Positions 1,344 to 19,231 of a stretch of 20,000 bases of DNA are shown piece after piece. Position 1 is the first letter of the stretch. Each line of letters opens with the position of its first letter. Origin of the DNA: Catajapyx aquilonaris. Taxonomy: Eukaryota. The notes beneath the pieces are model-generated. The model ran no database searches. It was not told where the DNA came from and saw nothing but the letters and a program-made list of their open reading frames with translations. The stretch covers positions 170,264-190,263 of the forward strand of contig KZ537974.1 in NCBI GenBank assembly GCA_000934665.2, written 5' to 3'. The position numbers and the translations under genes were made by a program.

Positions 1344-1508
1344 TATGAGCTTCGCCTGGTGGCATCGGACAACCTGAATGAGAACTTCACCACAGTTGTG
1401 ATCCACGTGAAAGACGTGAATGACAATCCGCCAGTCTTCGACCGGCCTACATACGAGACACAGATCACCGAAGAGGATGACCGCAACCTGCCCAAGAGGG
1501 TCCTCCAG
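1344..1508 (+). CDS. CadN: N-cadherin (DN-cadherin type) coding exon, first member of a duplicated exon pair (Drosophila exon-13-like); second half of one cadherin repeat and first half of the next
   Basis: Acceptor ttcctctgtcAG at 1342-1343, donor CAG|GTcact at 1509. 165 nt, phase 0-0. Encodes YELRLVASDNLNENFTTVVIHVKDVNDNPPVFDRPTYETQITEEDDRNLPKRVLQ with the cadherin Ca-binding motif DxNDNxP; closely matches DN-cadherin as I recall it. Confidence 0.93.
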
Positions 1509-3681: not shown

Positions 3682-4889
3682 GTCAGTGTTACATCAAAAT
3701 TTGTGATGAAAATATTCACCAAGCTGTATAATTTTATGCGCCTTACTGAATAACCTAAATTTAACCCGTATTTAGCAAAAGTAACTTAACCATCTCAGCT
3801 CTAAATTAACATTAATGAACAATTGTGCGTGTAAATTATGCTGAAGATCTGGATGACTTTTCATTGGATGAGTGAACAGTGGTTTCACAGACGGGCCACC
3901 CTGAATCTGCATAATTCATGCAGAGAGCCAAGGTGTCCTTGTCGCTTGAAACCCCCTCTTGGCCCTATAGGGCCGCACCTCTTTAATAACCCTGCGCCAA
4001 CAAAGGTTTTTTTTTTTTTTTGCCCCCCACCCCTCCCCCCTCGAACTGGAAGGACAACTACGAAACTGCTGCATAATGTATACCTCATAATCAGGAAGCC
4101 CTATTTCTGTTCGTAGCCGAATTCAACCGTGCAGCTGATGGGCGAATATCATCCGGCTCACTTGCTTCACTCGCCTGCAACTGAAGATGTGCCGTTATTA
4201 AAATGCCACATCGTTTCATATTTCACGCTAAAAATCCTCGTAAAAAGGGCCGTACATGATTGTAATGAGTTTTGGAGCGGGTACAAAAACGGTGAAGCTC
4301 AGCTCTAAATGCGACTCACTGTTTGATTACGCTCGACTTTATTTTTTTAAAAAAAATTGTGTAATTTTTGTGCGTGCCGGGTTTTTACTGAAAACGGTGG
4401 GGTGATGAAGTGGCAAAGCGTGAGAGCGCATTTGGGGACCGAACTTTAGGGAAATCAGATCCGATTCGGCGGAGTGTCATCCCAGCAGCCTTTTCCCCGC
4501 ACCATTTCGGGATGATTCAACCCCTAGTCTATTTTTCAGACCAGTTTTTTTTTTTATCCGGTGCAAAAATACGGGTTAGGCGCGTCGGATGGTAATAACT
4601 CCGAGTCGTCAATTAGAGAGGCTGGTACGCAGATGCGGCTGCAATTTGCGAGTCGGCGCGTGTCCTGCGGCTCCAAAGATTGCGGATATAATTTGTGGGA
4701 TGGCGGACAGGGCGAATTAATCAAGGATCTCGGTTTTTTTTATGTATATATTTCAAGCTCGTCCAATTGATCTGCGCTTCGCTTACAGATCCTCGTTAAA
4801 TTCAAGCGGCGCCAACATGTGGTCTGCTCACAAATCGGACCTATACTAGAACCGGATAGAGTGTGTATAAATATAATTTTTGTTTACAG

Positions 4890-6568
4890 GTATGGTGGTG
4901 ATGACGATGACGGCTGTGGACTATGATGACCCCAACGAGGGAACCAATGCTCGTCTGACTTATTCGATTGAGAAGAATGTGATTGATGAGGAGCAGGGCA
5001 GGCCGATCTTTGAGATCGAGCCGGAGACGGGTGTGATCAAGACCGCGGTGTGTTGCTTGGACCGGGAGAAGACACCGGATTATTCGATACAAGTGGTGGC
5101 AATGGACGGAGGGGGGTTGAAAGGGACAGGGACAGCCTCTATACGAGTGAAAGATATCAATGATATGCCGCCGCAGTTCACGAAGGACGAGTGGTACACC
5201 GAGGTTGATGAGACTGACGGGACCAATCTGCCGGACATGCCCATCCTGACGGTGACGGTGCACGATGAGGATGAGACCAACAAGTTCCACTACAAGGTGA
5301 TCGAGAACAGCGGGTACGGAGCGGACAAGTTCACTATGGTCAGGAACAACGATGGTACAGGCTCGCTCAAGATCGTGCAGCCCCTGGACTTTGAGGATCC
5401 GCTGCAGAGCCAAGGCTTCCGGTTCCGAATCCAGGTCAACGACAAGGGAGAGGACAATGACAACGACAAGTACCACGTGGCGTACGCTTGGGTAAGGGTG
5501 ACCCTGAGGGACATCAACGACAACAAGCCACAGTTTGAACGGCCCAACATCGAAGTGTCCGTGTACGAGAACGCAGAGGTTGGGAAGAGCCTGGAGACAT
5601 TCAAGGCGACTGATCCGGACCAGGGCGGGAAGAGCAAGGTGTCGTACGCGATAGACCGCACGTCGGACAGGAAGCGACAGTTCTCGATCAATCAGGACGG
5701 TACTGTCAGCATCCAGAGGAGCCTGGACAGAGAGGAGACCCCGCGTCACCAGGTGAAGATCCTGGCCATCGACGACGGCGTCCCACCCAAGACGGCCACT
5801 GCCACGCTCACAGTCATAGTGCAAGACATAAACGACAATGCGCCCACGTTCCTGAAAGACTACCGTCCGGTCCTGCCCGAACACGTGCCGCCTAGGAAAG
5901 TGGTGGAAGTGCTGGCCACCGACGACGACGACCGGTCCAAAGGCAACGGACCTCCGTTCACCTTCAGGATGGACCCCAATGCGGACGACATCATACGCGC
6001 GTCCTTCAAAGTGGAGCACGATCCGAAGGGCGCCAACGGAGACGGAATGGCCATCGTGTCGTCGTTGCGGTCGTTTGATCGCGAGCAGCAGAAGGAGTAC
6101 CTGGTTCCCATTGTGATAAAAGACTCCGGAAATCCAGCCATGTCCGGCACCAGCACGTTGACGGTCATCATCGGAGACGTGAACGACAACAAGATGCAGC
6201 CAGGATCCAAGGAGATATTTGTGTACAACTACATGGGACAGGCTCCTGACACCGAGATCGGTCGCGTGTACGTGTACGACTTGGACGACTGGGATCTTCC
6301 AGACAAGAAGTTCTACTGGGATGGACCAGACCACCCGTACTTCCGGTTAGATGAGGACACTGGAATGATCACGATGAAGCGGGGCACTAGAGAAGGGCGG
6401 TACCACTTGCGGTTCAAAGTGTACGACCGGAAGCACACCCAGACGGACGTGCCGGCCAATGTCACGGTCTTGGTGAAGGAAATACCTTACGATGCTGTGA
6501 TGAACTCCGGGTCAGTCAGGATAGCTGGGCTTACAGACGAGGACTTTATCCGGATATGGGACTACAGG
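4890..6568 (+). CDS. CadN: N-cadherin large exon encoding about five membrane-proximal cadherin repeats
   Basis: tttacAG|GT ATG...TACAGG|GTgagt. 1679 nt, phase 1-0, inside ORF 4880..6643. Repeated LDRE/LDFE/FDRE, AxDxD and DxNDN motifs. Confidence 0.97.
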
Positions 6569-6898
6569 GTGAGTCACTGCTGGATGGCTGGCACAATGCA
6601 TTGCTTTTGGTTCATGTCACTGGATCAAATCATATCGCAATAATCAATAATGGCATGAATATAAATATGCAAAAATTAATTGTTCCTTTTGCAACACTCA
6701 TCCCAGTGAGTAGTTAATATGTAACAGCTCGTGGACTTTGAGAAACTCTTTGTCACTCTGTACTGTAGTTGAAAATTGAAATGATGGTGCAGTCATTCCA
6801 TTATGAAAGAAATTGTTTGTGCCCAACATGTTTCCATTGTAAGAAGCAGAAATGCACTGGAAATTTTCCAGGACCAAAGTCGCATACTATATCTAGGG

Positions 6899-7384
6899 CA
6901 GGGGTATTCAACTAGTTTCAGACAAGGTCCAGTATTTACCTATCCTGGGCCATTGAAGGTTCGGATATTTTTTATGGTACGATTGGTACCAAAGTGATTG
7001 GTACCACAGGGTTCATATTCGAAAATATAAACATGTGCATCAAGGGTAGAAGGGCCTATTAAGACATTTTCGCCCTTTATGATGTCCTGTATACAGGGGC
7101 GTAGGCAGAAGAATTTCGGAGGGGGCCCATTTCGTAAGCACAAGGTGAACAAGCCGTAAAGGGCGGAAATTTTTTTGGTGGTTCAAGGTCACACGCGCTT
7201 AGGTGAGATGTGGGAGATTTGAATAGGTGTGTATTTGCTGAAATTGGTAGCACTTTTTCCAAAAAAAAATCATGAATTGGTAATTTATCATGCTATTTCA
7301 AACTGTCCTGTATATTGTCGCGGTCCGGACAAAATTGCGTCGCGGTCCGGATCCGGACCGCGGGCCGCCAGTTGAATATTCCTG
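6899..7384. mobile_element. Non-autonomous hAT-type DNA transposon (MITE), 486 bp
   Basis: TIRs CAGGGGTATTCAACT (6899-6913) and AGTTGAATATTCCTG (7370-7384), 13/15 match. Perfect 8-bp TSD ATCTAGGG at 6891-6898 and 7385-7392; an 8-bp TSD with a TCTAG core is typical of hAT-Charlie/Buster. GC-rich subterminal palindrome at 7341-7362. Confidence 0.9.
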
Positions 7385-8105
7385 ATCTAGGGTCTATTAT
7401 AGAATAGTTCCACACTTAAAACAATTGTCACATGTCTGTTTTGATGAAATTACTTTGCACAGACCTATAGGTAATTTTTTTTTAAATCCAGTAAGTAGTA
7501 GTGGTACTGTATGCAAGTTCTGCAAAAGGAGATTATGTTACCCTCATACAAAGTTATGCTGTTAGTTAGACAACCTTTACAACTCTTTTCTTCAAGGGTT
7601 GGTTACTTGGCAGGAGGAAAAGAATTTGGAGCAGCTTGGCACAGCCACTGGCTACATCTGGTTAAGCTTGATTGAGCCAGTGGTCAATTACTTTTAGAAT
7701 CAAGTTGGTTTCCAACCTACTGGGGATTAAACTGTGTTTGCCCTTAGGAAGTGAGTTGTTTGCAATTTAGAAGTTGGAAGTTTTAAAGTCCTTGGTCAGG
7801 TAATGAATTTTAAGGATTGTTGACTGTACTTGCCAGGTTGCAAGCAAGGTTACATTTAACAAACTGTAAGTCATGAATTAATCTGGTTGAAACTGCAACG
7901 TAATGTAACTGTGTGCATTATAATGTATAAAGGCCATTTCACAAAAAAATGTCGCGCAGCAAACAGCGCGCGTTGCGGCAAATTTTTTATTAAATAAATA
8001 AAAAAAATTTAAGTCTATATTAAAATTGCTCGGCCATGTGGTTAGTTGGCAGTGTATAGTTATCATTTATTAATGTGCATTAATATAAATGAGTAGGCTA
8101 TAATT

Positions 8106-8431
8106 TTTATTTTTTATTTTTTTATTTTTTTTACTTTACCCCGTGATAAGGCTGAGCCTTTTTAGGGGGGTGGAATACCACCATTTGTGCAAGGAGTCAA
8201 GGATGTAGGGTAGGGATAGGGATTTTTGGGGAGGGAACATTAGTGCAAGTGCAATGTCGGTAAAGGGGTCATGTGCTATTCCCCAGGAGGTTAGGTTGCC
8301 AGACACCTCCTTGGTGCAGGTCAGAGACCCTCCTGACCCAGGTGAAAGGAAAGTTCCCCAGGCGGGGATCGAACCTGGGGCCTTTCACTCAGCAAGCCGA
8401 GACGTTACCATCTCAGCCACCACACCTCCCC
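8106..8431 (-). mobile_element. tRNA-derived SINE, full length (~326 bp)
   Basis: Minus strand starts GGGGAGGTGTGG, with Pol III A box TGGCTGAGATGG (8408-8419) and B box GGTTCGATCCC (8365-8375), and ends in an A-rich tail (T-rich on + at 8106-8132). Perfect 14-bp TSD AGTAGGCTATAATT at 8092-8105 and 8432-8445. Confidence 0.9.
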
Positions 8432-8637
8432 AGTAGGCTATAATTATTTTTAGTGAATGACGCCCTGAATTACTTACATTCTTTAATATTAATTTGCAAT
8501 AATGTGACTCGCAGTAAAGTTGAATGCCATGTATAGGTTGAATTCATGATTTTAAAATGGGGAAGTGGTTCATGTCAGTGTATATCCTAAAATGGTGCTG
8601 AAATGCAATGCTGAAACATGTTTGCTTACTTCTCCAG

Positions 8638-9729: not shown

Positions 9730-9866
9730 GTGAGTGTACCTGTGATTTGCATGCATTGTCTCTTTTTTTTTTTAAAGCTGGTTACACACCTTGCTAATAG
9801 GCTATGACAAAATAATGTATCCAGTTCAACTGGTAAAACTAACTGATATCTTTTTTAAATGCACAG

Positions 9867-10708
9867 ATATATGATCTGGCACACCCTGGTCTGAGTCGCA
9901 ACAGCCAGAGTGGGTGCCCCCAGGTGGAGGATGTGTGCCTGGGCAATGATGTGACCGTCCGGTGTGCTGAGCATGGAGTATGCACAGGCAGCTTTACAGA
10001 ACCTCGGTGCGAGTGCCGCCCTGGGTGGACTGGCCCCTCTTGCTCCGTCCCAACCATACCCACCACTTTCAAACCACAGAGCTACGTCAAGTATGCCCTA
10101 TCCTTCGAGCCTGACCGTTACGTCACCCTGGTTCAGCTCAGGTTCCGCACCCGAGAGGAGCATGGGGAACTCTTCCGAGTGTCTGACCAACACAACCGGG
10201 AATATGGTATTCTGGAGATTAAGGACAGCCGGCTTCACTTCCGATACAACCTGAACAGCCTGCGCACAGAGGAAAAGAGTCTGTGGCTCAGTGCCCTCAC
10301 CGTTGATGATGGGCAGTGGCATACAGCCAGAGTCAGTCGGTTTGGGTCAGTTGCCATTTTGGAACTTGACGGAGGTGAAGGAAGGAGGTACAATGAGAGC
10401 TTCAGCTTCGAGGGGCACCAATGGATGATGGTGGACAAGCAGGAAGGGGTGTATGCTGGCGGGAAGGCTGAGTACACTGGAGTTCGCACCTTTGAAGTGT
10501 ATGCAGACTACCAGAAGGGTTGCCTGGACGACATAAGGCTTGAAGGAAAGCAGCTGCCTCTGCCACCTGCTCTCAATGGGACCCAATGGGGACAAGCAAC
10601 CATGGCCAGGAACCTAGACAGAGGTTGCCCCTCAAACAACCCTTGCTCCAACGTCATTTGCCCAGAGCCGTTCGAGTGTGTCGATCTCTGGAATGAGTAC
10701 GAGTGCAC
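9867..10708 (+). CDS. CadN: N-cadherin exon: EGF-like repeat, second laminin-G domain, start of next EGF
   Basis: gcacAG|ATA TAT GAT (IYDLAHPGLSRNS...) to GAGTGCAC|GTgagt. 842 nt, phase 0-2. Motifs DDGQWH and GCLDDIR. Confidence 0.96.
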
Positions 10709-11092
10709 GTGAGTACACACACCTGTTTGTTATACTGGAGTCGCTCCGCCAAAAGTAGCACTAAATATATTAACAGCATGGGAGTTACATGCACATTTAG
10801 TTTTATGTGAGGGACATGTCACTTTTGTGTATTGGATCTCTGAGAAAAAGTAATATTGTCTCCTTTCATTTTAATTTAATGAGTGCAGAACTTGCACAGG
10901 CTGCAGTAGTACCTCAGATGAAAATTTGACCATCTTTTAAAAGGATACAAAATAATAATCAAATAATATAGTTGGAATTTTAGGTTGCAAAGTAAGCTTT
11001 AGTAAGCAAGTGACATTCCTCTCGATAATCACAAGTAGTGTCACAAACCTCTGCATGCACTGGTCTTGACTAACACCTCGGTGGCGGTGTAG

Positions 11093-11334
11093 GTGCGGCG
11101 AAGGCAAGGTGGTGACACCTGATGGGAAGGGCTGCATGGATAAGAATGAGTGCCTTGAGAACCCGTGCCTGAACGGAGGCACATGCATCAACCAAGATCC
11201 ACGCTACCGCTACCAGTGCATCTGCCCAGAGGGATTCTGGGGGGAGAACTGCGAGCTGGTGCAGGAGGGGCAGATACTCAGGCTTAGCATGGGCGCCCTG
11301 GCTGCCATTCTTGTTTGTCTACTCATCATACTCA
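11093..11334 (+). CDS. CadN: N-cadherin alternative exon (Drosophila exon-18-like, first copy): Ca-binding EGF and N-terminal part of the transmembrane helix
   Basis: ggtgtAG|G TGC GGC...CTC A|GTgagt. 242 nt, phase 2-1: CGEGKVVTPDGKGCMDKNECLENPCLNGGTCINQDPRYRYQCICPEGFWGENCELVQEGQILRLSMGALAAILVCLLIIL. Confidence 0.94.
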
Positions 11335-11557
11335 GTGAGTTTACACATGAACCAATGAAGCACCTCTTCCTTCCTGCTTTACAACCTTTTGCTCACCAAT
11401 CCCTGTCACAATATATTTTTAGTTAGATCTAACCCCTACTGGTGGTGATGGGTGCACACAACTTATTAACTAACCTGGCGGAGTGTTCCTGTTTATACGA
11501 CCATTCATTGCACACTTTGTCGCAAATTTACTGGTACCATAAACTCCCGAAATTCAG

Positions 11558-11802
11558 GTGCCCACCAGGTCGCACGAAGCAGCTTGACAAGTGCATTGAC
11601 ATCGACGAATGTGCCTGGATCATCACTCCATGTCAGAATGATGCTGTTTGCATCAACATTGATGGTTATGAGATGTACCGTTGTGATTGTCTGCCTGGAT
11701 ATTCAGGGAAGGATTGCGAAGTGGAAGTGCTGCCATCTGCAACCATCACTACCTCAGCCGAGTTCCTCCTCACCATATGCATTTGCGTTTTTGTTCTCCT
11801 GA
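11558..11802 (+). CDS. CadN: N-cadherin alternative exon (exon-18-like, second copy): Ca-binding EGF and alternative transmembrane half
   Basis: aattcAG|G TGC CCA...CTG A|GTaaat. 245 nt, same phase 2-1: CPPGRTKQLDKCIDIDECAWIITPCQNDAVCINIDGYEMYRCDCLPGYSGKDCEVEVLPSATITTSAEFLLTICICVFVLL. Cysteine pattern and hydrophobic end parallel the previous exon. Confidence 0.92.
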
Positions 11803-12688
11803 GTAAATCCATTTTTATTTTATTCCATTCCTAATGATTTCACACCTGAGGTTAGAAAGAAGGTGATGCCATGCTAAAGGACATAAGACAATGCGTCACT
11901 CAATCATTTCCCATATGTACCTTACAACTGCCGGCACATATTACATCAGTATATATTTTCTGTCATAAAATGCTTTGATTTCTTTAATATCGACTGCAAA
12001 CTTTCAGACAAAGAAACACATGCAGCTATCCTATATTGGTGCCATATGCACATGAATGCAATGATCCTCCCACACCATTCATCTGCTTGACTGTCCCAAT
12101 GTGCAGAATAAGACAGGATCAGACTTTCAACAGTTGTCATGTAACCATATTAAGCAGTTGCACACAATTTACAAGTTATTGCTGAAATATAATTGTTCAG
12201 TTCAGTATGGTCAAGAATGTTCTTAGCCTCATCCTTACCAAAATAATTATGATTGTCTATCTGGTTGTAAGGTAAGAATCACCCGGGTGTTGCATGAATG
12301 TACATTGTACTTTTGACCAACAGTTACCACCATATAGCAGACTTCTGTCATTTGATGTGGTTGCTCTTACTAAGGTACTGACAACAGCTGCTGCCAATAT
12401 TTATGTGCTTTTGCATATTTGTGGCCAATGAAAGCTGTGTAAATACAACTGCTTATTTGAATCAAGTGATTTAACTTGTGAGATAGCTTTTGTGCTGATC
12501 CTTTATCATCCTGTGCAGAGACATGTCGTGATGTTACAACTGCAAAAGTGTATGGAAAGCTTTCATGTGCAGCTTTAATTGCCAATAGCATTGGCAGTTA
12601 CACCTTTTTTGGCCTACAGGTTTTATTTTACTATTCTGCATTTTACCAATAATAATTAAAATGCATTATTCTTCTTTTCAATCCACAG

Positions 12689-12892
12689 TTTTAGTACTAG
12701 TGTTTGTTGTGTACAATCGGCGAAGGGAAGCACAGATCAAGTACCCTGGTCCAGACGACGATGTGCGTGAAAACATAATCAACTACGATGACGAGGGTGG
12801 TGGTGAAGATGATATGACTGCATTTGACATCACTCCGCTTCAAATTCCTGTTGGCGCCCCTGGACCAGATGGACCTCCTGTAAAAATGCAGT
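12689..12892 (+). CDS. CadN: N-cadherin exon: rest of TM helix and juxtamembrane p120-catenin-binding region
   Basis: atccacAG|TT TTA...CAG T|GTaagt. 204 nt, phase 1-1: LVLVFVVYNRRRE...DDVRENIINYDDEGGGEDD, the classical cadherin juxtamembrane core. Confidence 0.96.
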
Positions 12893-13462
12893 GTAAGTGG
12901 AAATATTTTGTGATGTACCAGTATTTTCAGGAAGATCTACATCTCATGGGTTTTGTTCATTAAATGTTAATTATTGCATTAATTACACCATCTTCATAAC
13001 CTTTCTGTCCTTTTCATACTTTCAGCAGCAGTATTACCTAACTTATGCTGCAGTTAATTTGAATATTGAAATTAATGGGCAGTTAATATCCAGCCACCCA
13101 TAAACTTCTATTTCATATGTTGACTACAGTTTGTAATCATTCATCCACTCATATCTCATTAATTTGGTAATTCACCCACTAGCCCTTGTATTATGCATGT
13201 GCATTAATTAGCGATAATTGGTAAGGGATATCAGCAACCCTGGTATAATGTCAATCAATGGAAGCCCAGATCTGAACCCCTCATTTATTAAATGGGCAGT
13301 GAGGAATCTGTTACAAAGCACCTTTTAGTGATTTTGCTTGTACAAATGTTCCTGTGATATCTAGCTAGATATTCAAGCCCTTTAACTTCATAATTTCCAA
13401 GTGATAAAAACAAACAATATTTACTTCCTTGTTTGAGACATTGCACTTTTTTGGCATTTTAG

Positions 13463-13657
13463 ATCCTGCGGCTGCTCCCTTGGGCCCTCCCATCGTCCCC
13501 ACCATGGTGGGAGGCGAGCCCAACGTGGGTGTGTTCATCGATGAGCACAAAAAGCGAGCAGACAACGATCCCAATGCTCCGCCATTTGACGACCTGCGAA
13601 ACTATGCCTACGAAGGTGGAGGCAGCACTGCGGGATCACTCTCCTCATTAGCCTCAG
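13463..13657 (+). CDS. CadN: N-cadherin exon: cytoplasmic domain (beta-catenin-binding region)
   Basis: ggcattttAG|AT CCT...TCA G|GTagtt. 195 nt, phase 1-1: ...[33 protein letters not shown]. Confidence 0.95.
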
Positions 13658-14020
13658 GTAGTTGCACCTTTCTCCAGAAATCTAGGCAACTATATTCCCT
13701 GTTGTTTTCTTGTCTTCATTTGGTGTACTTCAGTGCTGCTCTTGAATTTTCCACCACCAAATTTTAAAATACATATTGACAGACAAACTGTTTTTGGTAG
13801 ATTCCTATTTTTTAAAGTTTTGTTAGATAATTTCATCTCTCTGCAACTCATTATGACAGTAGCTCTTTGGATGCATGTACTATTTGCCCAAACTTTTATT
13901 CTGCTGTGACATGGAATGACCTTTATATCTTTCACATACGTATCAAGTTATTGTGAGTGTTACTGAAACATTGACACACTTGACTTTTTCTTCCCCCTTT
14001 TTTCCCCCCGCAACAATTAG

Positions 14021-14127: not shown

Positions 14128-17100
14128 AGGAGGAGATAGATGGAGTAAAAGGAAGAAGGAAGCCAAGGCTGCTGCAGCTAGTCAGAGATTAGGCTGGAAA
14201 AGGAAGTCTTAGGGGTTTTTGGGCAGGGAGGTGCAATCCCAAAAAATTTTATCTGCCTCCCACCCATCCCATTCCATTTTCAAGCCAACTCAAAGCAACA
14301 AACCCAGTTTTTTTTGTCGCTATTATTAAGATATAAGGACTGGAGATGAGATTTATTCCAAATGGACTCCATAAAAACCCCACAACTTAAGTGGAGCTAA
14401 ATAAGAGAAAAAAAGTATTGGTGTATAGTTTCTCTGTGTGTATGTGTGCTGAAGAAGTAGATTGGGGAGGGCGACATGAAGAAGAGAAAAATAATGGAGG
14501 AAGAGAGAAAAAGTGTGGTAAACTGTTTTCTGGTTGTGAAGAGGAAAATGGGGGAAGAAGATACCAATGTTTTTTTTTGGATGTTGCTCTCTGTCTTTTT
14601 TCGTGCGATCTGATTGCCCTTTTTTATTGTGCCGTAACCAGTACTGTTTGCACTCAGGTTAAATATTTCACAGCCGTTCTCCAAACTCGACCCCTCACCC
14701 CCTCATCCAGTGACCCCCCCAAACAACCCCCCACAGGTTGCGGCAGTGATTTTCAAAGTGGTGATTCAGATCAGTGGACAGACTGACAAGAAGACTAGAG
14801 AGTGACAGAAGAGAGACACAACACAACCCACATAAGTGACTCAAATCAAAAAAAAAAGTAAGAAAGAGGAAACACAAACTTTGCAGCTAATGGTTAAACT
14901 CCCCCTCCCCAAAATACACGAGTTCAGTTGTGCGTTATCCAGGCTCAAAAGTCGTGAGTCAATCAGAGCCATTTGTTATTTTGCCATATGAGTTTAGTCA
15001 GGCGGCTCATTTTTTGTACCTTTTGGACTTTTCGTTTTTTTACATTTTTGTATTATTATTTAAGCCTTGCAACCCACAAACTTATATTCCTGACCATTGT
15101 CATCGGTTTTGCTGATCAAGTGGCAGGGATTTTTCCAGAGCATTTCTATCATGCCCAATTCCAGGTGTGTGTGTTTTTCCTCTCCCAAACCACCAAGTAC
15201 ACAAATAAGGGAAGAGAATAATAATCAAACAAGTGCCTAACAAACCCCTGGATTGACAAAGAGAGTAATAAGAAAAGCCAATATAATACCAAAGTGAAAA
15301 CCGATGACTATGGGGGGGAAAACACTATGTAATTTATTTGAGTTATTTTTGTACTTTTCATCCCCTCCCAAATGTGACAACTGCATTTGTTTTCCCCTTA
15401 TGTGGGAGAAAATACATATATCGAGGCATAAGAGACATCTCTTCTCACGTGACACTTGGGATGCTCAATTCCACAATTTTTATTGACGTAATAACTATCA
15501 CAGTTGAAGTCCCCAGTCAGAGCAGGTTTAACTACGTTAGAAAGGTAAAATATATATATAAATACATCTGCACTACTCCCCCCAAAAAATATTTATTTGT
15601 TGAAAAAGAAGTGGTTTTTGATACTGTTTGTGCGTAACTTAATCAAACATTTTTAGTGATCTGTGGGGGAGCCGGAGTAACAGTGTGTTTGGACACATGG
15701 AACTCTTTGTGTGTGGCAAGAAGTATGGGGAAAAAAATAATCATGACATAGGAAAAAAACCAGAGATTAATTTTGTTTCGTTTTTTCGGTGAATAATCTT
15801 GTCATTGTTGGCTGTCCATATTCAGTGTGAGTGTGTCCAGCGATAAAAAGAGGAAACAGCTTTTTTTGTCCTGCACGCATCATGACACCATTTTTGCCCA
15901 CCCCTCGCCACACGCACATAACATGCATTTGAGTTTTAGAGATGCCTTTCAGTTCCGTGGGAGTACATGTGAGATGTGATTCATTCTTGAGAGCAGTGTG
16001 TGTGTTATGCACCACCACCCACCCCTTTTTCCCTTTTTCTCTCCCCCTCCTGATGAACACCCAACCACAAAAACTAAAAGAAAAAAAATGTTTGTACCAT
16101 ACACCTAAGAAAACTCCTTTTATCACTGCCATATAGTGGTTCGGAGAAAGCAAGAGATGTGTGAATGTAAGCGTGACTTCGGTTTTAATTTTCTGTTGGT
16201 ATAGGCTAGTTGCTTTGGCCATTTTTTATTTTTCAAAAAAGTGAACACTCCAACAAAAAAAACACACACACCCATTTTTTTATTGCCCCTACCTGTTACC
16301 TGACCTTTGCACTACATTTCCCACATCCAACTACACCTAGATGATGACGATGGAAAAAAAGGCTGACATGTGAGTGAGTTCAACTGAAAAGAAGTCAATA
16401 TCTTGCAAAAACTGAGAGGAAAATACTCACAATCATTGCCCATTTTTTTGGTTACTTCTTTTACACACACTTTCTACGTTTATGATTATTTTCCAAAACT
16501 GAATCATTCCCACTATTCCTACTAATTGATAACGAGAAAAAAATAAAAAGTTTTGTACATTTCTACACATTCATGGTACCTAATAGTAAATAATATGAAA
16601 CCAACACATACAGGGACATGAGTTGGCATCAAGATATGGTAATAGCCAACATAACTCTTTATGTTTTTAAAACACTTTTGCCCAATTTGTAATACTATAA
16701 CACATGCAGAAAAAAAGCATCTCTCTCTTTTATTTTAATCAATCTACATTCGCTCATGTGTCCTGGCATCATGGTGTTATTTGCGGGGCTTACTTTTCAA
16801 GCAAAACGAATGCCGAAAAAAGGTGACTGAAATTTTTGTCGCCCTGCAAATGACACCAGAGTTTCTTCATGAACCAAAAAGACGATCCTGTAAAAGACTC
16901 ACAATCATGGAATCTCAAGGCATTTATGATATTATTATTTTTTATTTTTGAGTCTCCTCCCCTGGTGGCTAGCAATACAGAGATATATTTGTAGGTTCCA
17001 AAATTAATGTAATTAGTAATGATAAAAAAAAGAATGAAGAGAAATAAGTATGACACAAAGAAAAATAACATAAGTATGCAGGAGTTTAAAGTCACAGGAT

Positions 17101-17270
17101 GACAAAGGGGGACGTTGGTAGTGATAACCACCATCAGCACTTTTCGTTCCTGTGATTTTAGAGACTGTCAAAAAAATTCTCGTGCTCTGTTTTGGTGTTG
17201 TGTTTTTGCAGCTGTGATTTCTGTAGCTGTATAGCTCTATACCGAAATAAAAATTACACCAGTTCTGAAA
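14128..17270 (+). other. Probable long 3' UTR of the cadherin gene
   Basis: Non-coding, A/U-tract rich. AATAAA at 16542-16547 and 17246-17251. The true end is inferred, not observed. Confidence 0.5.
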
Positions 17271-18069
17271 GTTAACAATGGCGGTTTGTGAAGGGATGAA
17301 TGTCGTATTATGGATTTTGCACTCCTTTCCAGAAATATAGGGACAACCTCCAGATGCATGGGTGTTCAGCTGGCTAAATGCAGCTTTGAAGACTGATGAA
17401 TGGTGAACAAGGTTTGGGAAATTGCATGTTGTATGGCATCAGGCTAAAAATGTGCAGTAGGCCTACTGTACTGGTACTATTGCAGAAGTTTGATCATATG
17501 TAAGGTTGTAATATTCAACCTTGCACAGAAGCTGTATTATTGCTTCTACATTGTTAATTGTCAGATTAATTTCTGAAAGGTCTTGTTGACAATGTGGAGT
17601 CAATACAAGTGTCTGGTTGTAGGAATGATAGCTTCAAATGAAGTGGAATTGAGCTCAGGTGCATTTCACTTCATCAGAGTTCAGAGGCAATGAGAGCCAT
17701 GTTTAATTTATTGCATGCAGTCTAATTATTATGTAGTCTAATTATCCTCCTTCAGGTAATTAAATCTTAGAGCTGTGCAGATACTGCAGTTCAGGCCAAT
17801 CAGACGGTGTCAGTTTATTGGCAAAGTGGGTAAATCCCGAAGTAAATCCTCTTGAAGAGCTGACGAGTGTTCTCGAGAGCTACCGTATTGTGAAATACAG
17901 TATGACGTACCCAGTGTCCACCCCGCTTGTTTTGCAGTAATGATTTAATAATTTTGATTAGTAAAAAATGTACTCCACTTTATGAAATGGTATACGGACA
18001 CTCTTAATTCGGTTTATTATTTCTCATCACAAGCGAGCATGTTCTGTTGGCACCCCTGAGGACGCCCTC

Positions 18070-18089
18070 NNNNNNNNNNNNNNNNNNNN
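18070..18089. other. Assembly gap preceding poly-C runs
   Basis: N run followed by C-rich low-complexity sequence. Confidence 0.99.
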
Positions 18090-18246
18090 CTCCCCCTCTC
18101 CCCCCCCCGCCCCCCCCCCCTCCCCCTCCTTCCGTAAGTCGGCCATCTTTGCTCAGACGCCGGTTCGACGTACGACTCACGCGGCACGTCGTGTCGGGGA
18201 CTGTTCTTCTTCTCGTCCGCGGCGTCCATCGGAAGGAAGTGTCAAG
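18090..18246 (+). promoter_or_regulatory. CpG-rich promoter/5' UTR of SmB
   Basis: Sudden CpG-dense, GC-rich stretch ahead of the ATG. YY1/Pho-like GCCATCTT at 18142-18149. A CCAAT box (GGCCAATCAG, 17794-17803) lies upstream across the gap. Confidence 0.55.
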
Positions 18247-18249: not shown

Positions 18250-18406
18250 GTGAGTGGGCGTCCTCTGTCGCTTCTGAGAGGCTTCTACGGGCAGGGAAAT
18301 CCGGGCTGTGCCTCATAAAATTGATGGAAACAAAGGACAAAGAGGCGGGGCCTAGGCCATTTCCCTATTTACACGACATTTTCAAATGTTGCTTGTTCCA
18401 TTCCAG

Positions 18407-18500
18407 ACGATCAGCAAGAACAACAAGATGCTGGCCCACATCAACTACCGGGTCAGGGTCATCCTGCAGGACTCCAGGACATTCATTGGGACATTCAAAG
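18407..18500 (+). CDS. SmB: Small nuclear ribonucleoprotein B (SmB/SNRPB) exon 2; gene continues beyond the window
   Basis: ttccattccAG|ACG...TTCAAAG|GTttgt. 94 nt: [31 protein letters not shown], the SmB N-terminus and Sm1 motif. The expected continuation AFDKHMN was not seen in the window. Confidence 0.93.
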
Positions 18501-19231
18501 GTTTGTTTGTGCCCTACCTTTTGCTGCAGAGTCGCAGTTGGTCTAGGCGATTATCGGCCAGTGTGGTGTGATGAAAGCCAGTGACAGGATGCCTTACAGA
18601 GCTTACACTGGTATTAATGAATGCAGTGCAGCCGAGTGCAGCTATGTGCCTATGTCACACCCCCATACTACCCATGCACTGGCCTAAACAAGCCCAGTTC
18701 GTGCGTAGGTGATGTACCAGTGCCACACCAGGCTATGAACAAATTGACATAGTGATACTATGCATTACATGGAGGCTGGTTTGTATTGAGCCCCCATGTA
18801 ACATTCAGGCATTGAGCTTGTTGTAGTGTAACTGTCGCGATACTTGGACAAGGGCTTTGTAGTCGTTGTGAGATATAGAGCTAGAGTGGTTCCAGGAGGG
18901 ACCTGTTCCTCGTTACGAATTTTTTTAAACCAAAGAATAGGGACTTAAAAAAAAATTCTTTCCTTTTCATGCTTAGGAAGATTTTTCTGACAAAGTCACG
19001 GAAGGACAGGGGAAAATAAAATTCAATGAAAAAGTTACATGCATTTAAATAGTGCTTGGAGCCTCTCAGGCTCCACCTACGTAGTTAAGGGTTAATTATG
19101 ATTAATGAAAGTCTGTGCTTGACAAGAAAATTTTTTTTTGGATTGTGTTGCAACCCAGGTTGATTCATGACATGACTGACTTGCCAGAGCACATTCGAAA
19201 TGCCTTGACACAGATTGTTCTAAAATCCAAC

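What the first reader, a model, noticed from the sequence alone, without database searches (positions are those of the whole stretch)
10727..11500. Candidate docking-site/selector RNA switch controlling the transmembrane-exon choice (exon-18-like pair)
Seen: 34 nt into the upstream intron lies CGCTCCGCCA (10742-10751). It pairs with TGGCGGAGTG (11476-11485) in front of the second alternative exon (9 Watson-Crick + 1 G-U). The duplex extends with bulges through GGAG/TTCC, TATA/TATA and TTG/CGA, spanning 10727-10751 against 11476-11500, and would loop out the first exon. The same site also pairs with TGGCGGtGT (11082-11090) just before the first exon's AG (6 WC, a mismatch, then C-G and G-U). 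Both exons are therefore preceded by the same module, ACTAAC followed by TGGCGGnGT. These motifs keep their CpGs in otherwise CpG-poor introns. Established: one docking site with competing selectors drives mutually exclusive splicing in arthropod Dscam1 exon 6, 14-3-3zeta and Mhc. Inference: N-cadherin TM isoform choice uses the same logic; I do not know of a description for CadN. Caveat: the first-exon duplex is short and overlaps its 3' splice site, so it could repress rather than activate.
Basis: partly seen in the sequence, partly recalled or inferred. Interest (0 to 1): 0.85.

Follow-up and report, generated by a model that had tools for sequence, protein, structure and literature searches.

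The report
Unproven intron helix at N-cadherin exons
Two alternative transmembrane exons of an arthropod N-cadherin gene are flanked by intron stretches that could base-pair and loop one exon out, but the match is no stronger than other matches in nearby natural sequence and is not seen in relatives, so it stays an untested candidate.

Summary
The sequence facts are correct. The window holds the 3' half of an arthropod N-cadherin gene. It has two tandem, same-phase EGF+transmembrane exons (11093-11334 and 11558-11802), the ME-18 pair known from arthropods. CGCTCCGCCA (10742-10751) pairs with TGGCGGAGTG (11476-11485) through 9 Watson-Crick pairs and 1 G-U, and extends to about -27 to -29 kcal/mol. 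This is the strongest duplex between the two introns, and global folds predict it with probability 0.96-0.99.

The case for a switch is weak:
- Only 2 of 123 dinucleotide shuffles reach this energy, but 12 of 80 GC-matched placements of natural sequence from the same window do.
- The proposed pairing with the first exon's "selector" has probability about 0 in every fold, so competition between selectors is not supported.
- Neither the motifs nor a consistent architecture appear in 11 other arthropod lineages recovered from metagenomes. All are too distant for intron alignment, so covariation could not be tested.
- No RNA covered the alternative exons.
- Exclusivity needs no docking site: including both exons or skipping both shifts the frame into stop codons.

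New point: selector B abuts the only branch-point-like motifs in front of exon B. My odds are about 55% fortuitous and 35% a lineage-specific functional helix.

The parts
9867..10708 (+). Upstream constitutive exon (EGF + laminin-G + start of an EGF), ending ...NEYEC with 2 spare bases
   Evidence: Open frame and Pfam Laminin_G_2 at 5.5e-18. RNA-like contigs of run X5 start at 9866 and cover 9866-10599.
10709..11092 (+). Intron 1 (384 nt), GTGAGT...TAG
10727..10751 (+).
   Evidence: Duplex energies; best intron 1 x intron 2 duplex; pair probability 0.96-0.99
11069..11074 (+). ACTAAC, likely branch point of exon A (18 nt before the AG)
   Evidence: ACTAAC-like motifs sit before the A-type exon in several other loci.
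11082..11090 (+). It occupies the place of exon A's polypyrimidine tract.
   Evidence: It never pairs with the 5' arm in folds and pairs weakly and locally with 11069-11076.
11093..11334 (+). Alternative exon A (242 nt): EGF-like domain + transmembrane segment. This is the highly conserved type (...CELVQEGQILRLSMGALAAILVCLLIIL).
11335..11557 (+). Intron 2 (223 nt), GTGAGT...CAG
11469..11474 (+). ACTAAC, probable distal branch point of exon B. The only YTRAY motifs in the last 150 nt of intron 2 are at 11429, 11466 and 11470.
11476..11500 (+). 3' arm of the candidate helix ('selector B'); core at 11476-11485. It begins 2 nt after the ACTAAC and includes the pyrimidine-rich GTTCCTGTTTATAC.
11484..11555 (+). 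72-nt AG-free zone in front of exon B's 3' splice site
11558..11802 (+). Alternative exon B (245 nt): EGF-like (calcium-binding type) domain + transmembrane segment, same phase as exon A
12689..12892 (+). Downstream constitutive exon (end of the TM segment and juxtamembrane cytoplasmic region)
   Evidence: An X5 contig joins 12892 to 13463. The next exon carries the cadherin cytoplasmic domain (Pfam PF01049).

Best explanation
The region is the ME-18-type pair of alternative EGF+transmembrane exons of an arthropod N-cadherin gene. Most likely it is fortuitous, and it is not a docking-site/selector system with competing selectors.

Mutual exclusivity at the mRNA level is already secured by the reading frame. 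Joining both exons (242 + 245 nt) shifts the frame and ends in a TGA at the last codon of exon B. Skipping both shifts the frame into a stop inside the next exon. Such transcripts would probably be removed by nonsense-mediated decay (inferred).

Which exon is used is then most likely set by competition between two weak 3' splice sites. Exon A has a purine-rich tract after a consensus branch point. Exon B has a distal branch point 83 nt upstream and a 72-nt AG-free zone. Trans-acting factors probably act on these sites (inferred, not shown).
For: - Exon pair and gene. In 55 of the 120 listed relatives the segment just before the cytoplasmic exon could be typed: 49 are A-type and 6 are B-type.
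- Frame: exon lengths are 242 and 245 nt, the sum mod 3 is 1, and 242 mod 3 is 2. The shifted frames of exon B and of the downstream exon run into stops ('B 1' and 'down 1').
- Energy not exceptional against natural sequence: 24 of 145 placements and 12 of 80 GC-matched placements reach -29.1 kcal/mol.
- Restricted z-scores: the window scores -2.48, and the 13 other loci tested (11 lineages) range from -4.17 to +0.88, with two at or below -2.3.
- Ten other inverted pairs of 9-16 nt lie in the same 1.3 kb.
- Selector A never pairs with the docking site in folds.
- Neither motif occurs at a corresponding place in any of the 42 related loci.
- In the one group of close relatives available (L018=L029, L033, L035; 88-92% identical), the first 100 nt of intron 1 are 77-87% conserved. 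That is below the 92-100% seen in the 200 nt before exon B.
- Weak 3' splice sites and the distal branch-point motifs.
Against: - The helix is the single best duplex between introns 1 and 2. It is stronger than the best intron 2 x intron 3 duplex (-25.5) and the best intron 1 x intron 3 duplex (-23.6).
- Only 2 of 123 shuffles and 2 of 80 restricted shuffles reach its energy.
- Folding predicts it with probability 0.96-0.99.
- Its 5' arm sits 18-34 nt from the constitutive 5' splice site, and its 3' arm abuts the likely branch point of exon B. These are suggestive places.
- The arms hold 6 of the 9 intronic CpGs in a CpG-poor gene.
- The module ACTAAC...TGGCGG occurs only in front of the two alternative exons.
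- The natural-sequence null may itself contain functional or transposon-derived helices, so it is conservative.
- All relatives found are distant, so non-conservation weighs little against a lineage-specific element.
Confidence: 0.55

Rival explanations
1. A lineage-specific single long-range helix (10727-10751 with 11476-11500) is functional. It loops out exon A together with its splice sites and brings the constitutive 5' splice site close to exon B's distal branch point, which biases splicing toward exon B. It works like a looping-out switch rather than a competition between two selectors. Regulation would come from factors or kinetics that allow or prevent the helix.
For: - Best intron 1 x intron 2 duplex, -29.1 kcal/mol.
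- 2 of 123 and 2 of 80 shuffles reach it.
- Probability 0.96-0.99 in global folds of 0.9-2 kb.
- The arms flank exon A, and the 3' arm starts 2 nt after ACTAAC at 11469-11474.
- CpGs are retained in the arms, and the one G-U in the core is what a CpG-to-TpG change in the 3' arm would leave (inference).
- One other lineage (L014) has a perfect 12-nt complement at a similar place, 54-80 nt from the 5' splice site and 71 nt before exon B; 1 of 80 shuffles reach it.
Against: - Natural-sequence controls reach the same energy in 12 of 80 and 24 of 145 placements.
- There is no sequence or architectural conservation in the other lineages. Besides L014, only L025 is nominally significant, through a purine/pyrimidine low-complexity match 155 nt before its exon B.
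- No RNA data exist for exon use.
- If the helix formed as predicted, exon A, the strongly conserved type, would rarely be used.
Confidence: 0.22
2. The same helix is functional but with the opposite sign. It sequesters the pyrimidine-rich stretch directly downstream of exon B's only branch-point-like motifs and so hinders U2AF/U2 assembly. Exon B is repressed, and exon A is the default until the helix is opened.
For: - The only YTRAY motifs in the last 150 nt of intron 2 lie at 11429, 11466 and 11470.
- A 72-nt AG-free zone follows.
- The 3' arm 11476-11500 covers GTTCCTGTTTATAC right after the ACTAAC.
- This reading fits exon A being the conserved, predominant type among annotated relatives (49 of the 55 typed).
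Against: The statistical and comparative weaknesses are the same as for the loop-out reading. The branch point is inferred from consensus only and has not been mapped.
Confidence: 0.1
3. This is a full docking-site/selector system. One docking site (10742-10751) pairs alternatively with selector A (11082-11090) or selector B (11476-11485), and the competition decides which exon is used.
For: Both selectors share TGGCGGnGT downstream of ACTAAC. Both are complementary to the same docking bases.
Against: - The pairing with selector A is only -12.3 to -13.1 kcal/mol.
- It has probability about 0 in all six fold contexts, including the three in which selector B is absent.
- It lies on the last 9 intron bases before the AG, so it would mask exon A's 3' splice site rather than activate the exon.
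- An 8-of-9 match to a 9-mer somewhere in a 384-nt intron has a chance of roughly 0.04 (own estimate). TGGCGGAGT-like sites are not clearly enriched in the window (6 against 2.83 expected; 10 of 200 shuffles reach 6).
- There is no conservation.
Confidence: 0.06
4. TGGCGGnGT next to the branch points is a binding site for a splicing regulator that acts on both alternative exons. Its complement near the 5' splice site is then incidental.
For: The module sits at both alternative 3' splice regions and nowhere else in 20 kb.
Against: No call links the motif to any known factor, and it is absent at corresponding places in all related loci.
Confidence: 0.05

Closest known systems
Dscam1 exon 6 docking site / selector sequences (Graveley 2005; May et al. 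2011). Read here only as described in passages of PMC3245913 and PMC6071210.
   Same: - An element in the intron just downstream of the constitutive exon is complementary to a sequence upstream of a variable exon.
- The pairing loops out the intervening variable exon.
   Different: - There, every variable exon has a selector, and docking site and selectors are conserved across insects. Mutations and compensatory changes prove the mechanism.
- Here only one convincing pairing exists. The second is not predicted to form, no conservation was found, and no experiment exists.
- Here the 3' arm lies downstream of the likely branch point rather than well upstream of it.
14-3-3zeta, Mhc and MRP1 clusters, with a docking site in the downstream intron (as summarised in a passage of PMC6071210)
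   Same: Competing intronic pairings govern small clusters of mutually exclusive exons in arthropods.
   Different: - The docking site there is downstream of the cluster.
- Here the best duplexes involving intron 3 are weaker (-25.5 and -23.6 kcal/mol) and unremarkable.
srp bidirectional pairing model (Yue et al. 2016, PMC4691838; search listing and abstract start only) and human ATE1 exons 7a/7b (PMC7797038; search listing and abstract start only)
   Same: These are two-exon clusters in which intronic helices flanking one exon decide between two exons.
   Different: - Those systems have two sets of conserved, experimentally tested competing helices.
- Here a possible second set (11375-11387 with 10982-10994 or with 12263-12274) is weak, at -13.2 and -18.6 kcal/mol.
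Frame-enforced exclusivity with nonsense-mediated decay. It is named as one mechanism for two-exon clusters in a passage of PMC6071210; the FGFR2 IIIb/IIIc example is recalled, not read.
   Same: Double inclusion and double skipping both shift the frame into stop codons.
   Different: Decay of such transcripts has not been shown for this gene. The ME-13-like pair in the same window (165 nt each) cannot use this mechanism.
Arthropod N-cadherin ME-18a/18b exon pair (Hsu et al. 2009, PMC2655722; passages read)
   Same: - Two tandem alternative exons each encode part of the transmembrane region.
- Orthologous exons are more alike across species than the two paralogous exons within a species are to each other.
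   Different: That paper reports conserved exon organisation and low synonymous rates near the alternative exons. In the passages read it describes no intronic RNA pairing.

Membership tests
Arthropod N-cadherin ME-18 alternative exon pair | The gene is a classic arthropod N-cadherin with cadherin repeats, laminin-G/EGF region, TM segment and catenin-binding tail | tested here: met
   - Pfam Cadherin 4.6e-57, Laminin_G_2 5.5e-18, EGF, and the cadherin cytoplasmic motif PF01049 at 1.1e-14.
- The best protein relatives are named neural-cadherin and come from many insect orders, at 80-85% identity.
Arthropod N-cadherin ME-18 alternative exon pair | Two tandem homologous exons of similar length and the same phase, each encoding an EGF-like part plus a TM segment | tested here: met
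   - Lengths 242 and 245 nt, same phase.
- Both match Pfam EGF.
- The same up-A-B order is found in the other genomic loci.
Arthropod N-cadherin ME-18 alternative exon pair | The two exons are used in a mutually exclusive way in RNA | tested here: inconclusive
   - No RNA contig covers either exon in this species.
- In relatives, cDNA-like contigs carry A alone (L001) or B alone (L002=L004), from different species.
- Annotated proteins carry A-type (49) or B-type (6) before the cytoplasmic exon.
Docking-site/selector competing RNA structures of mutually exclusive exon clusters | A docking site in a flanking intron is complementary to a selector next to EACH variable exon | tested here: inconclusive
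   Selector B pairs at -26.6 kcal/mol and is the best duplex. Selector A pairs at only -12.3 to -13.1 kcal/mol and has pair probability about 0.
Docking-site/selector competing RNA structures of mutually exclusive exon clusters | Complementarity beyond what chance gives | tested here: inconclusive
   2 of 123 shuffles reach the energy. Against that, 24 of 145 and 12 of 80 natural-sequence placements reach it.
Docking-site/selector competing RNA structures of mutually exclusive exon clusters | Docking site and selectors are conserved, with compensatory changes, in related species | tested here: inconclusive
   - The motifs are absent in all 42 related loci.
- None of those loci is closer than about 80% nucleotide identity in the exons, and their introns do not align.
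- An architecture test in 11 other lineages gave 2 nominal hits, L014 and L025, the latter low complexity.
Docking-site/selector competing RNA structures of mutually exclusive exon clusters | Exon choice depends on the pairing (disruptive and compensatory mutations) | not testable with these tools
   This needs a minigene or in vivo editing.

The most novel reading that the evidence does not exclude
A lineage-specific long-range RNA helix joins the start of the intron after the last laminin-G/EGF exon to the sequence that abuts a distal branch point of the second transmembrane exon. It acts as a switch for the N-cadherin transmembrane isoform. This would be the first RNA-structure control described for any CadN alternative exon pair, with the unusual feature that the selector lies between the branch point and the 3' splice site.
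Probability: 0.3. Interest if true: 0.55.

Novelty: new member of a known kind. Interest (0 to 1): 0.3.

Why it matters
N-cadherin's alternative exons are conserved across arthropods and show regulated expression (Hsu et al. 2009, PMC2655722, passages read). In the papers I could search, the cis-elements that choose between them are not described.

If the helix works, it would add CadN to the short list of genes whose mutually exclusive splicing is steered by long-range intron pairing. It would also give a simple two-exon model in which the pairing touches a distal branch point.

If it is fortuitous, which I judge somewhat more likely, the case is a caution. In this locus, shuffle controls overstate the significance of intron complementarity by roughly an order of magnitude compared with natural-sequence controls.

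Tried and rejected
- Whole genome: none is held for this window, so paralogues and other introns could not be used.
- RNA evidence: no RNA holder is listed. Run X5 behaves like RNA, because one contig joins 12892 to 13463. The pieces shown lie on constitutive exons, and the depth bins over both alternative exons (11021-11874) read 0. It gives no information on exon use.
- Earlier notes of this scan: nothing by place, words or sequence.
- Rfam on 9800-13000: only two sub-threshold chance matches, elsewhere in intron 3.
- Sequence-level conservation: the docking and selector motifs, allowing 2 mismatches, occur at no corresponding place in the 42 related loci. Nucleotide search finds no intron similarity beyond a few bases at exon edges.
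- Whole-intron duplex scans in 7 other loci: their best duplexes do not sit at docking-like places.
- Close-relative group (L018=L029, L033, L035): at 88-92% identity it is too similar to resolve conserved islands. The start of its intron 1 is not specially conserved. A shared GTAAATACTGTA / CAGTGTTTAC pairing about 60 nt before its exon B is within chance energies (57 of 70 and 17 of 70 shuffles reach it).
- ME-13-like pair in the window: no outstanding duplex, -24.4 to -26.9 kcal/mol.
- A second possible competing set (11375-11387 with 10982-10994 or with 12263-12274): weak, at -13.2 and -18.6 kcal/mol.
- (U)GCAUG elements near the alternative exons of several lineages: seen by eye, not counted against a control, so not used.
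- Literature: searches found no description of intronic pairing for CadN. Hatje and Kollmar 2013 (Nat Commun), which predicted competing structures genome-wide in Drosophila, is not held. Its tables may bear on novelty.

Full report
**What is in the window.**

The + strand carries the 3' half of an arthropod-type N-cadherin gene.
- A 574-residue open stretch at 4877-6600 has four cadherin domains.
- The exon 9867-10708 has laminin-G and EGF matches.
- The exon at 13465-13659 has the cadherin cytoplasmic motif.
- The closest named proteins are neural-cadherins from many insect orders, at 80-85% identity over the 280-residue exon. None is closer than that.

Between the laminin-G exon and the cytoplasmic exons lie two tandem exons, 11093-11334 (242 nt) and 11558-11802 (245 nt). 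They share the same phase, and each encodes an EGF-like domain plus a hydrophobic transmembrane stretch. This matches the ME-18a/18b pair described for arthropod N-cadherin (Hsu et al. 2009, PMC2655722; passages read).

Among the 120 listed protein relatives, the segment just before the cytoplasmic exon could be typed in 55. It is A-type in 49 and B-type in 6. cDNA-like metagenome contigs carry A alone (L001) or B alone (L002=L004), from different species.

**Checking the observation.**

- The core is 9 Watson-Crick pairs plus 1 G-U, at -18.3 kcal/mol.
- The 25-nt arms give -26.6 kcal/mol.
- The alternative pairing with 11082-11090 gives -12.3 to -13.1 kcal/mol.
- Scanning every 30-nt window of intron 1 against every 30-nt window of intron 2, the proposed pair is the best duplex, at -29.1 kcal/mol.
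- It also beats the best intron 2 x intron 3 duplex (-25.5) and the best intron 1 x intron 3 duplex (-23.6).
- Partition-function folds of 0.9, 1.2 and 2 kb around it give the ten core pairs probabilities of 0.84-1.0, mostly 0.96-0.99.

**Is it more than chance?**

Against dinucleotide shuffles of both introns, 2 of 123 reach -29.1 (mean -21.9, sd 2.25). Restricted to the first 150 nt of intron 1 and the last 200 nt of intron 2, 2 of 80 do.

Natural sequence gives a different answer. I placed the same geometry (384 nt, a 242-nt gap, 223 nt) elsewhere in the window. 24 of 145 random placements reach -29.1. With GC matched to the two introns, 12 of 80 placements reach it. These represent four distinct duplexes, two of them purine/pyrimidine low complexity and two of complex sequence.

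Further points in the same direction:
- The same restricted test on 13 other loci (11 lineages) gave z-scores from -4.17 to +0.88. Two are at or below -2.3, against -2.48 for the window.
- A separate tool lists ten other inverted pairs of 9-16 nt within 10600-11900.

So the helix stands out against shuffles at about 0.02. Against real sequence the figure is only about 0.15.

The shared module ACTAAC...TGGCGG occurs only in front of the two alternative exons (2 found, 0.01 expected), but it was defined after the fact. TGGCGGAGT with one mismatch is found 6 times against 2.83 expected, and 10 of 200 shuffles reach 6.

**The second selector.**

The pairing of the docking site with 11082-11090 is never predicted. 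Its probability is about 0 in the three full contexts. It is also about 0 in three truncated contexts that end before selector B is transcribed. In those, the docking bases pair with other nearby sequence, and 11081-11088 pairs weakly with the ACTAAC at 11069-11076. The site also covers the last nine intron bases before the AG. The defining feature of a docking/selector system, a selector for each exon competing for one site, is therefore not supported.

**Relatives.**

No whole genome is held. One scan of metagenome contigs with the upstream exon returned 42 loci. Genomic up-A-B structure is present in:
- L009, L012=L013, L014, L015, L023 and L036;
- a group of close relatives, L018=L029, L033 and L035;
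- a group with a divergent cysteine-rich B-type exon, L006/L007/L008, L017, L025 and L011.

None exceeds about 80% nucleotide identity to the window in the exons, and no intron similarity exists. Neither motif occurs at a corresponding place.

The architecture test looked for a strong duplex between the start of intron 1 and the 200 nt before exon B. It is nominally significant in L014, which has a perfect 12-nt AU-rich complement 54-80 nt from the 5' splice site and 71 nt before exon B (1 of 80 shuffles reach it). It is also significant in L025 (0 of 70), through a purine/pyrimidine low-complexity match that overlaps the 5' splice site and lies 155 nt before its exon B. It is not significant in the other eleven loci tested:

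| Locus | Shuffles reaching the observed energy |
|---|---|
| L009 | 29 of 80 |
| L012 | 54 of 80 |
| L015 | 59 of 80 |
| L023 | 34 of 70 |
| L018 | 57 of 70 |
| L033 | 45 of 70 |
| L035 | 17 of 70 |
| L036 | 10 of 70 |
| L007 | 23 of 70 |
| L017 | 48 of 70 |
| L011 | 48 of 70 |

In the close-relative group, the first 100 nt of intron 1 are 77-87% conserved. The 200 nt before exon B and the 100 nt after exon A are 92-100% conserved. Conserved regulatory sequence there hugs the alternative exons, not the constitutive 5' splice site.

These results argue against an ancestral docking system for CadN ME-18. They say little about a lineage-specific one.

**RNA.**

No RNA holder is listed for the region. 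Run X5 looks like RNA, because one contig joins 12892 to 13463 and others lie on constitutive exons. The depth bins over both alternative exons (11021-11874) read 0. It gives no evidence either way.

**New anatomical points.**

1. Exclusivity needs no RNA structure here. Including both exons adds 487 nt, and the shifted frame ends at a TGA in the last codon of exon B. Skipping both shifts the frame into a stop in the next exon. Removal of such transcripts by nonsense-mediated decay is inferred.
2. Both alternative 3' splice sites are weak compared with the constitutive ones.
3. In the last 150 nt of intron 2, the only branch-point-like YTRAY motifs are at 11429, 11466 and 11470. A 72-nt AG-free zone follows. 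Exon B probably uses a distal branch point, and the 3' arm of the helix begins 2 nt after it and covers the adjacent pyrimidine-rich stretch.

If the helix forms in vivo, it could favour exon B by looping out exon A, which is the classical reading. It could instead hinder exon B by masking the tract next to its branch point. The sequence alone cannot decide the sign.

**Literature.**

Five full-text searches found no description of intronic pairing for CadN.
- Passages of PMC3245913, PMC9013439, PMC6071210, PMC3923563 and PMC3303723 list CadN among genes with mutually exclusive exons, or analyse exonic motifs only.
- Ivanov and Pervouchine (PMC6071210, passages) report that two-exon clusters in fly and human, taken together, show an increased capacity for competing structures. 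They also propose that duplicating one arm of a stem creates two selectors. That would fit the repeated module here, but it does not test it.
- Hatje and Kollmar 2013 is not held. Its predictions for Drosophila CadN, if any, could not be checked.

**Verdict.**

The switch interpretation remains a candidate. My odds are:
- about 0.55 that the complementarity has no dedicated function;
- about 0.32 that it is a lineage-specific functional helix, split 0.22 for looping out exon A and 0.10 for masking exon B;
- about 0.06 for the full competing-selector model;
- about 0.05 for a protein-binding motif.

If real, it would be a new member of a known kind.

Noticed in passing
window 1344-1508 and 1723-1887: A second pair of tandem alternative-looking exons, 165 nt each, in the same phase, both with the DxNDxPxF cadherin motif, separated by a 214-nt intron. 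It resembles the ME-13a/13b pair. Because each exon is a multiple of 3, the reading frame cannot enforce exclusivity here. No outstanding intron duplex was found (-24.4 to -26.9 kcal/mol).
   Followed up: partly
window about 6750-8450: High-copy repeats sit inside an intron. Summed contig depth in the DNA run rises from about 30 to between 9,000 and 267,000, with many variant letters and joints. These are probably interspersed transposable-element copies.
   Followed up: no
window 11375-11387 with 10982-10994 or 12263-12274: An element 41 nt into intron 2 can pair either with a site about 100 nt before exon A or with a site in intron 3. The two partners share GGTTG[C/T]AA[A/G]GTA. The layout resembles bidirectional pairing, but the energies are weak, at -13.2 and -18.6 kcal/mol.
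   Followed up: partly
window 11484-11555 and 11429-11474: A 72-nt AG-free zone lies before exon B, and the only branch-point-like motifs are 83-128 nt upstream of its 3' splice site. This suggests a distal branch point for exon B.
   Followed up: partly
L006, L007, L017, L025, L011 (about 250-350 nt after their A-type exon; L008 inferred from its likeness to L006/L007): One group of relatives has a B-type alternative exon that is not EGF-like. It is a divergent cysteine-rich segment (SCPxGYER...DDDVxC) followed by a TM stretch.
   Followed up: partly
window 11050-11060; loci L009, L011, L012, L018/L033/L035, L036 near their alternative exons: (U)GCAUG-type motifs, the binding consensus of Rbfox-family splicing regulators (recalled), lie close to the alternative exons in several lineages. 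In the L018 group they occur both just before and just after exon A. They were seen by eye and not tested against a control.
   Followed up: no
window 18356-18571 (+): A short open frame has a weak LSM-domain match (E 0.0028, below the Pfam cut-off). It may be the first exon of a neighbouring Sm-like gene.
   Followed up: partly
window about 200-260 and 18070-18090: Runs of N (64 in all), flanked by G- or C-rich homopolymer-like sequence. They are probably assembly gaps.
   Followed up: no
window 13656-13685 / 14212-14241 and 17211-17240 / 17767-17796: Two long-range complements of complex sequence, at -32.0 and -30.1 kcal/mol with runs of 23 and 19 paired positions. They lie downstream of the last coding exons seen and are stronger than the candidate helix. 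Their nature is unknown; transposon arms and 3' UTR structure are both possible.
   Followed up: no
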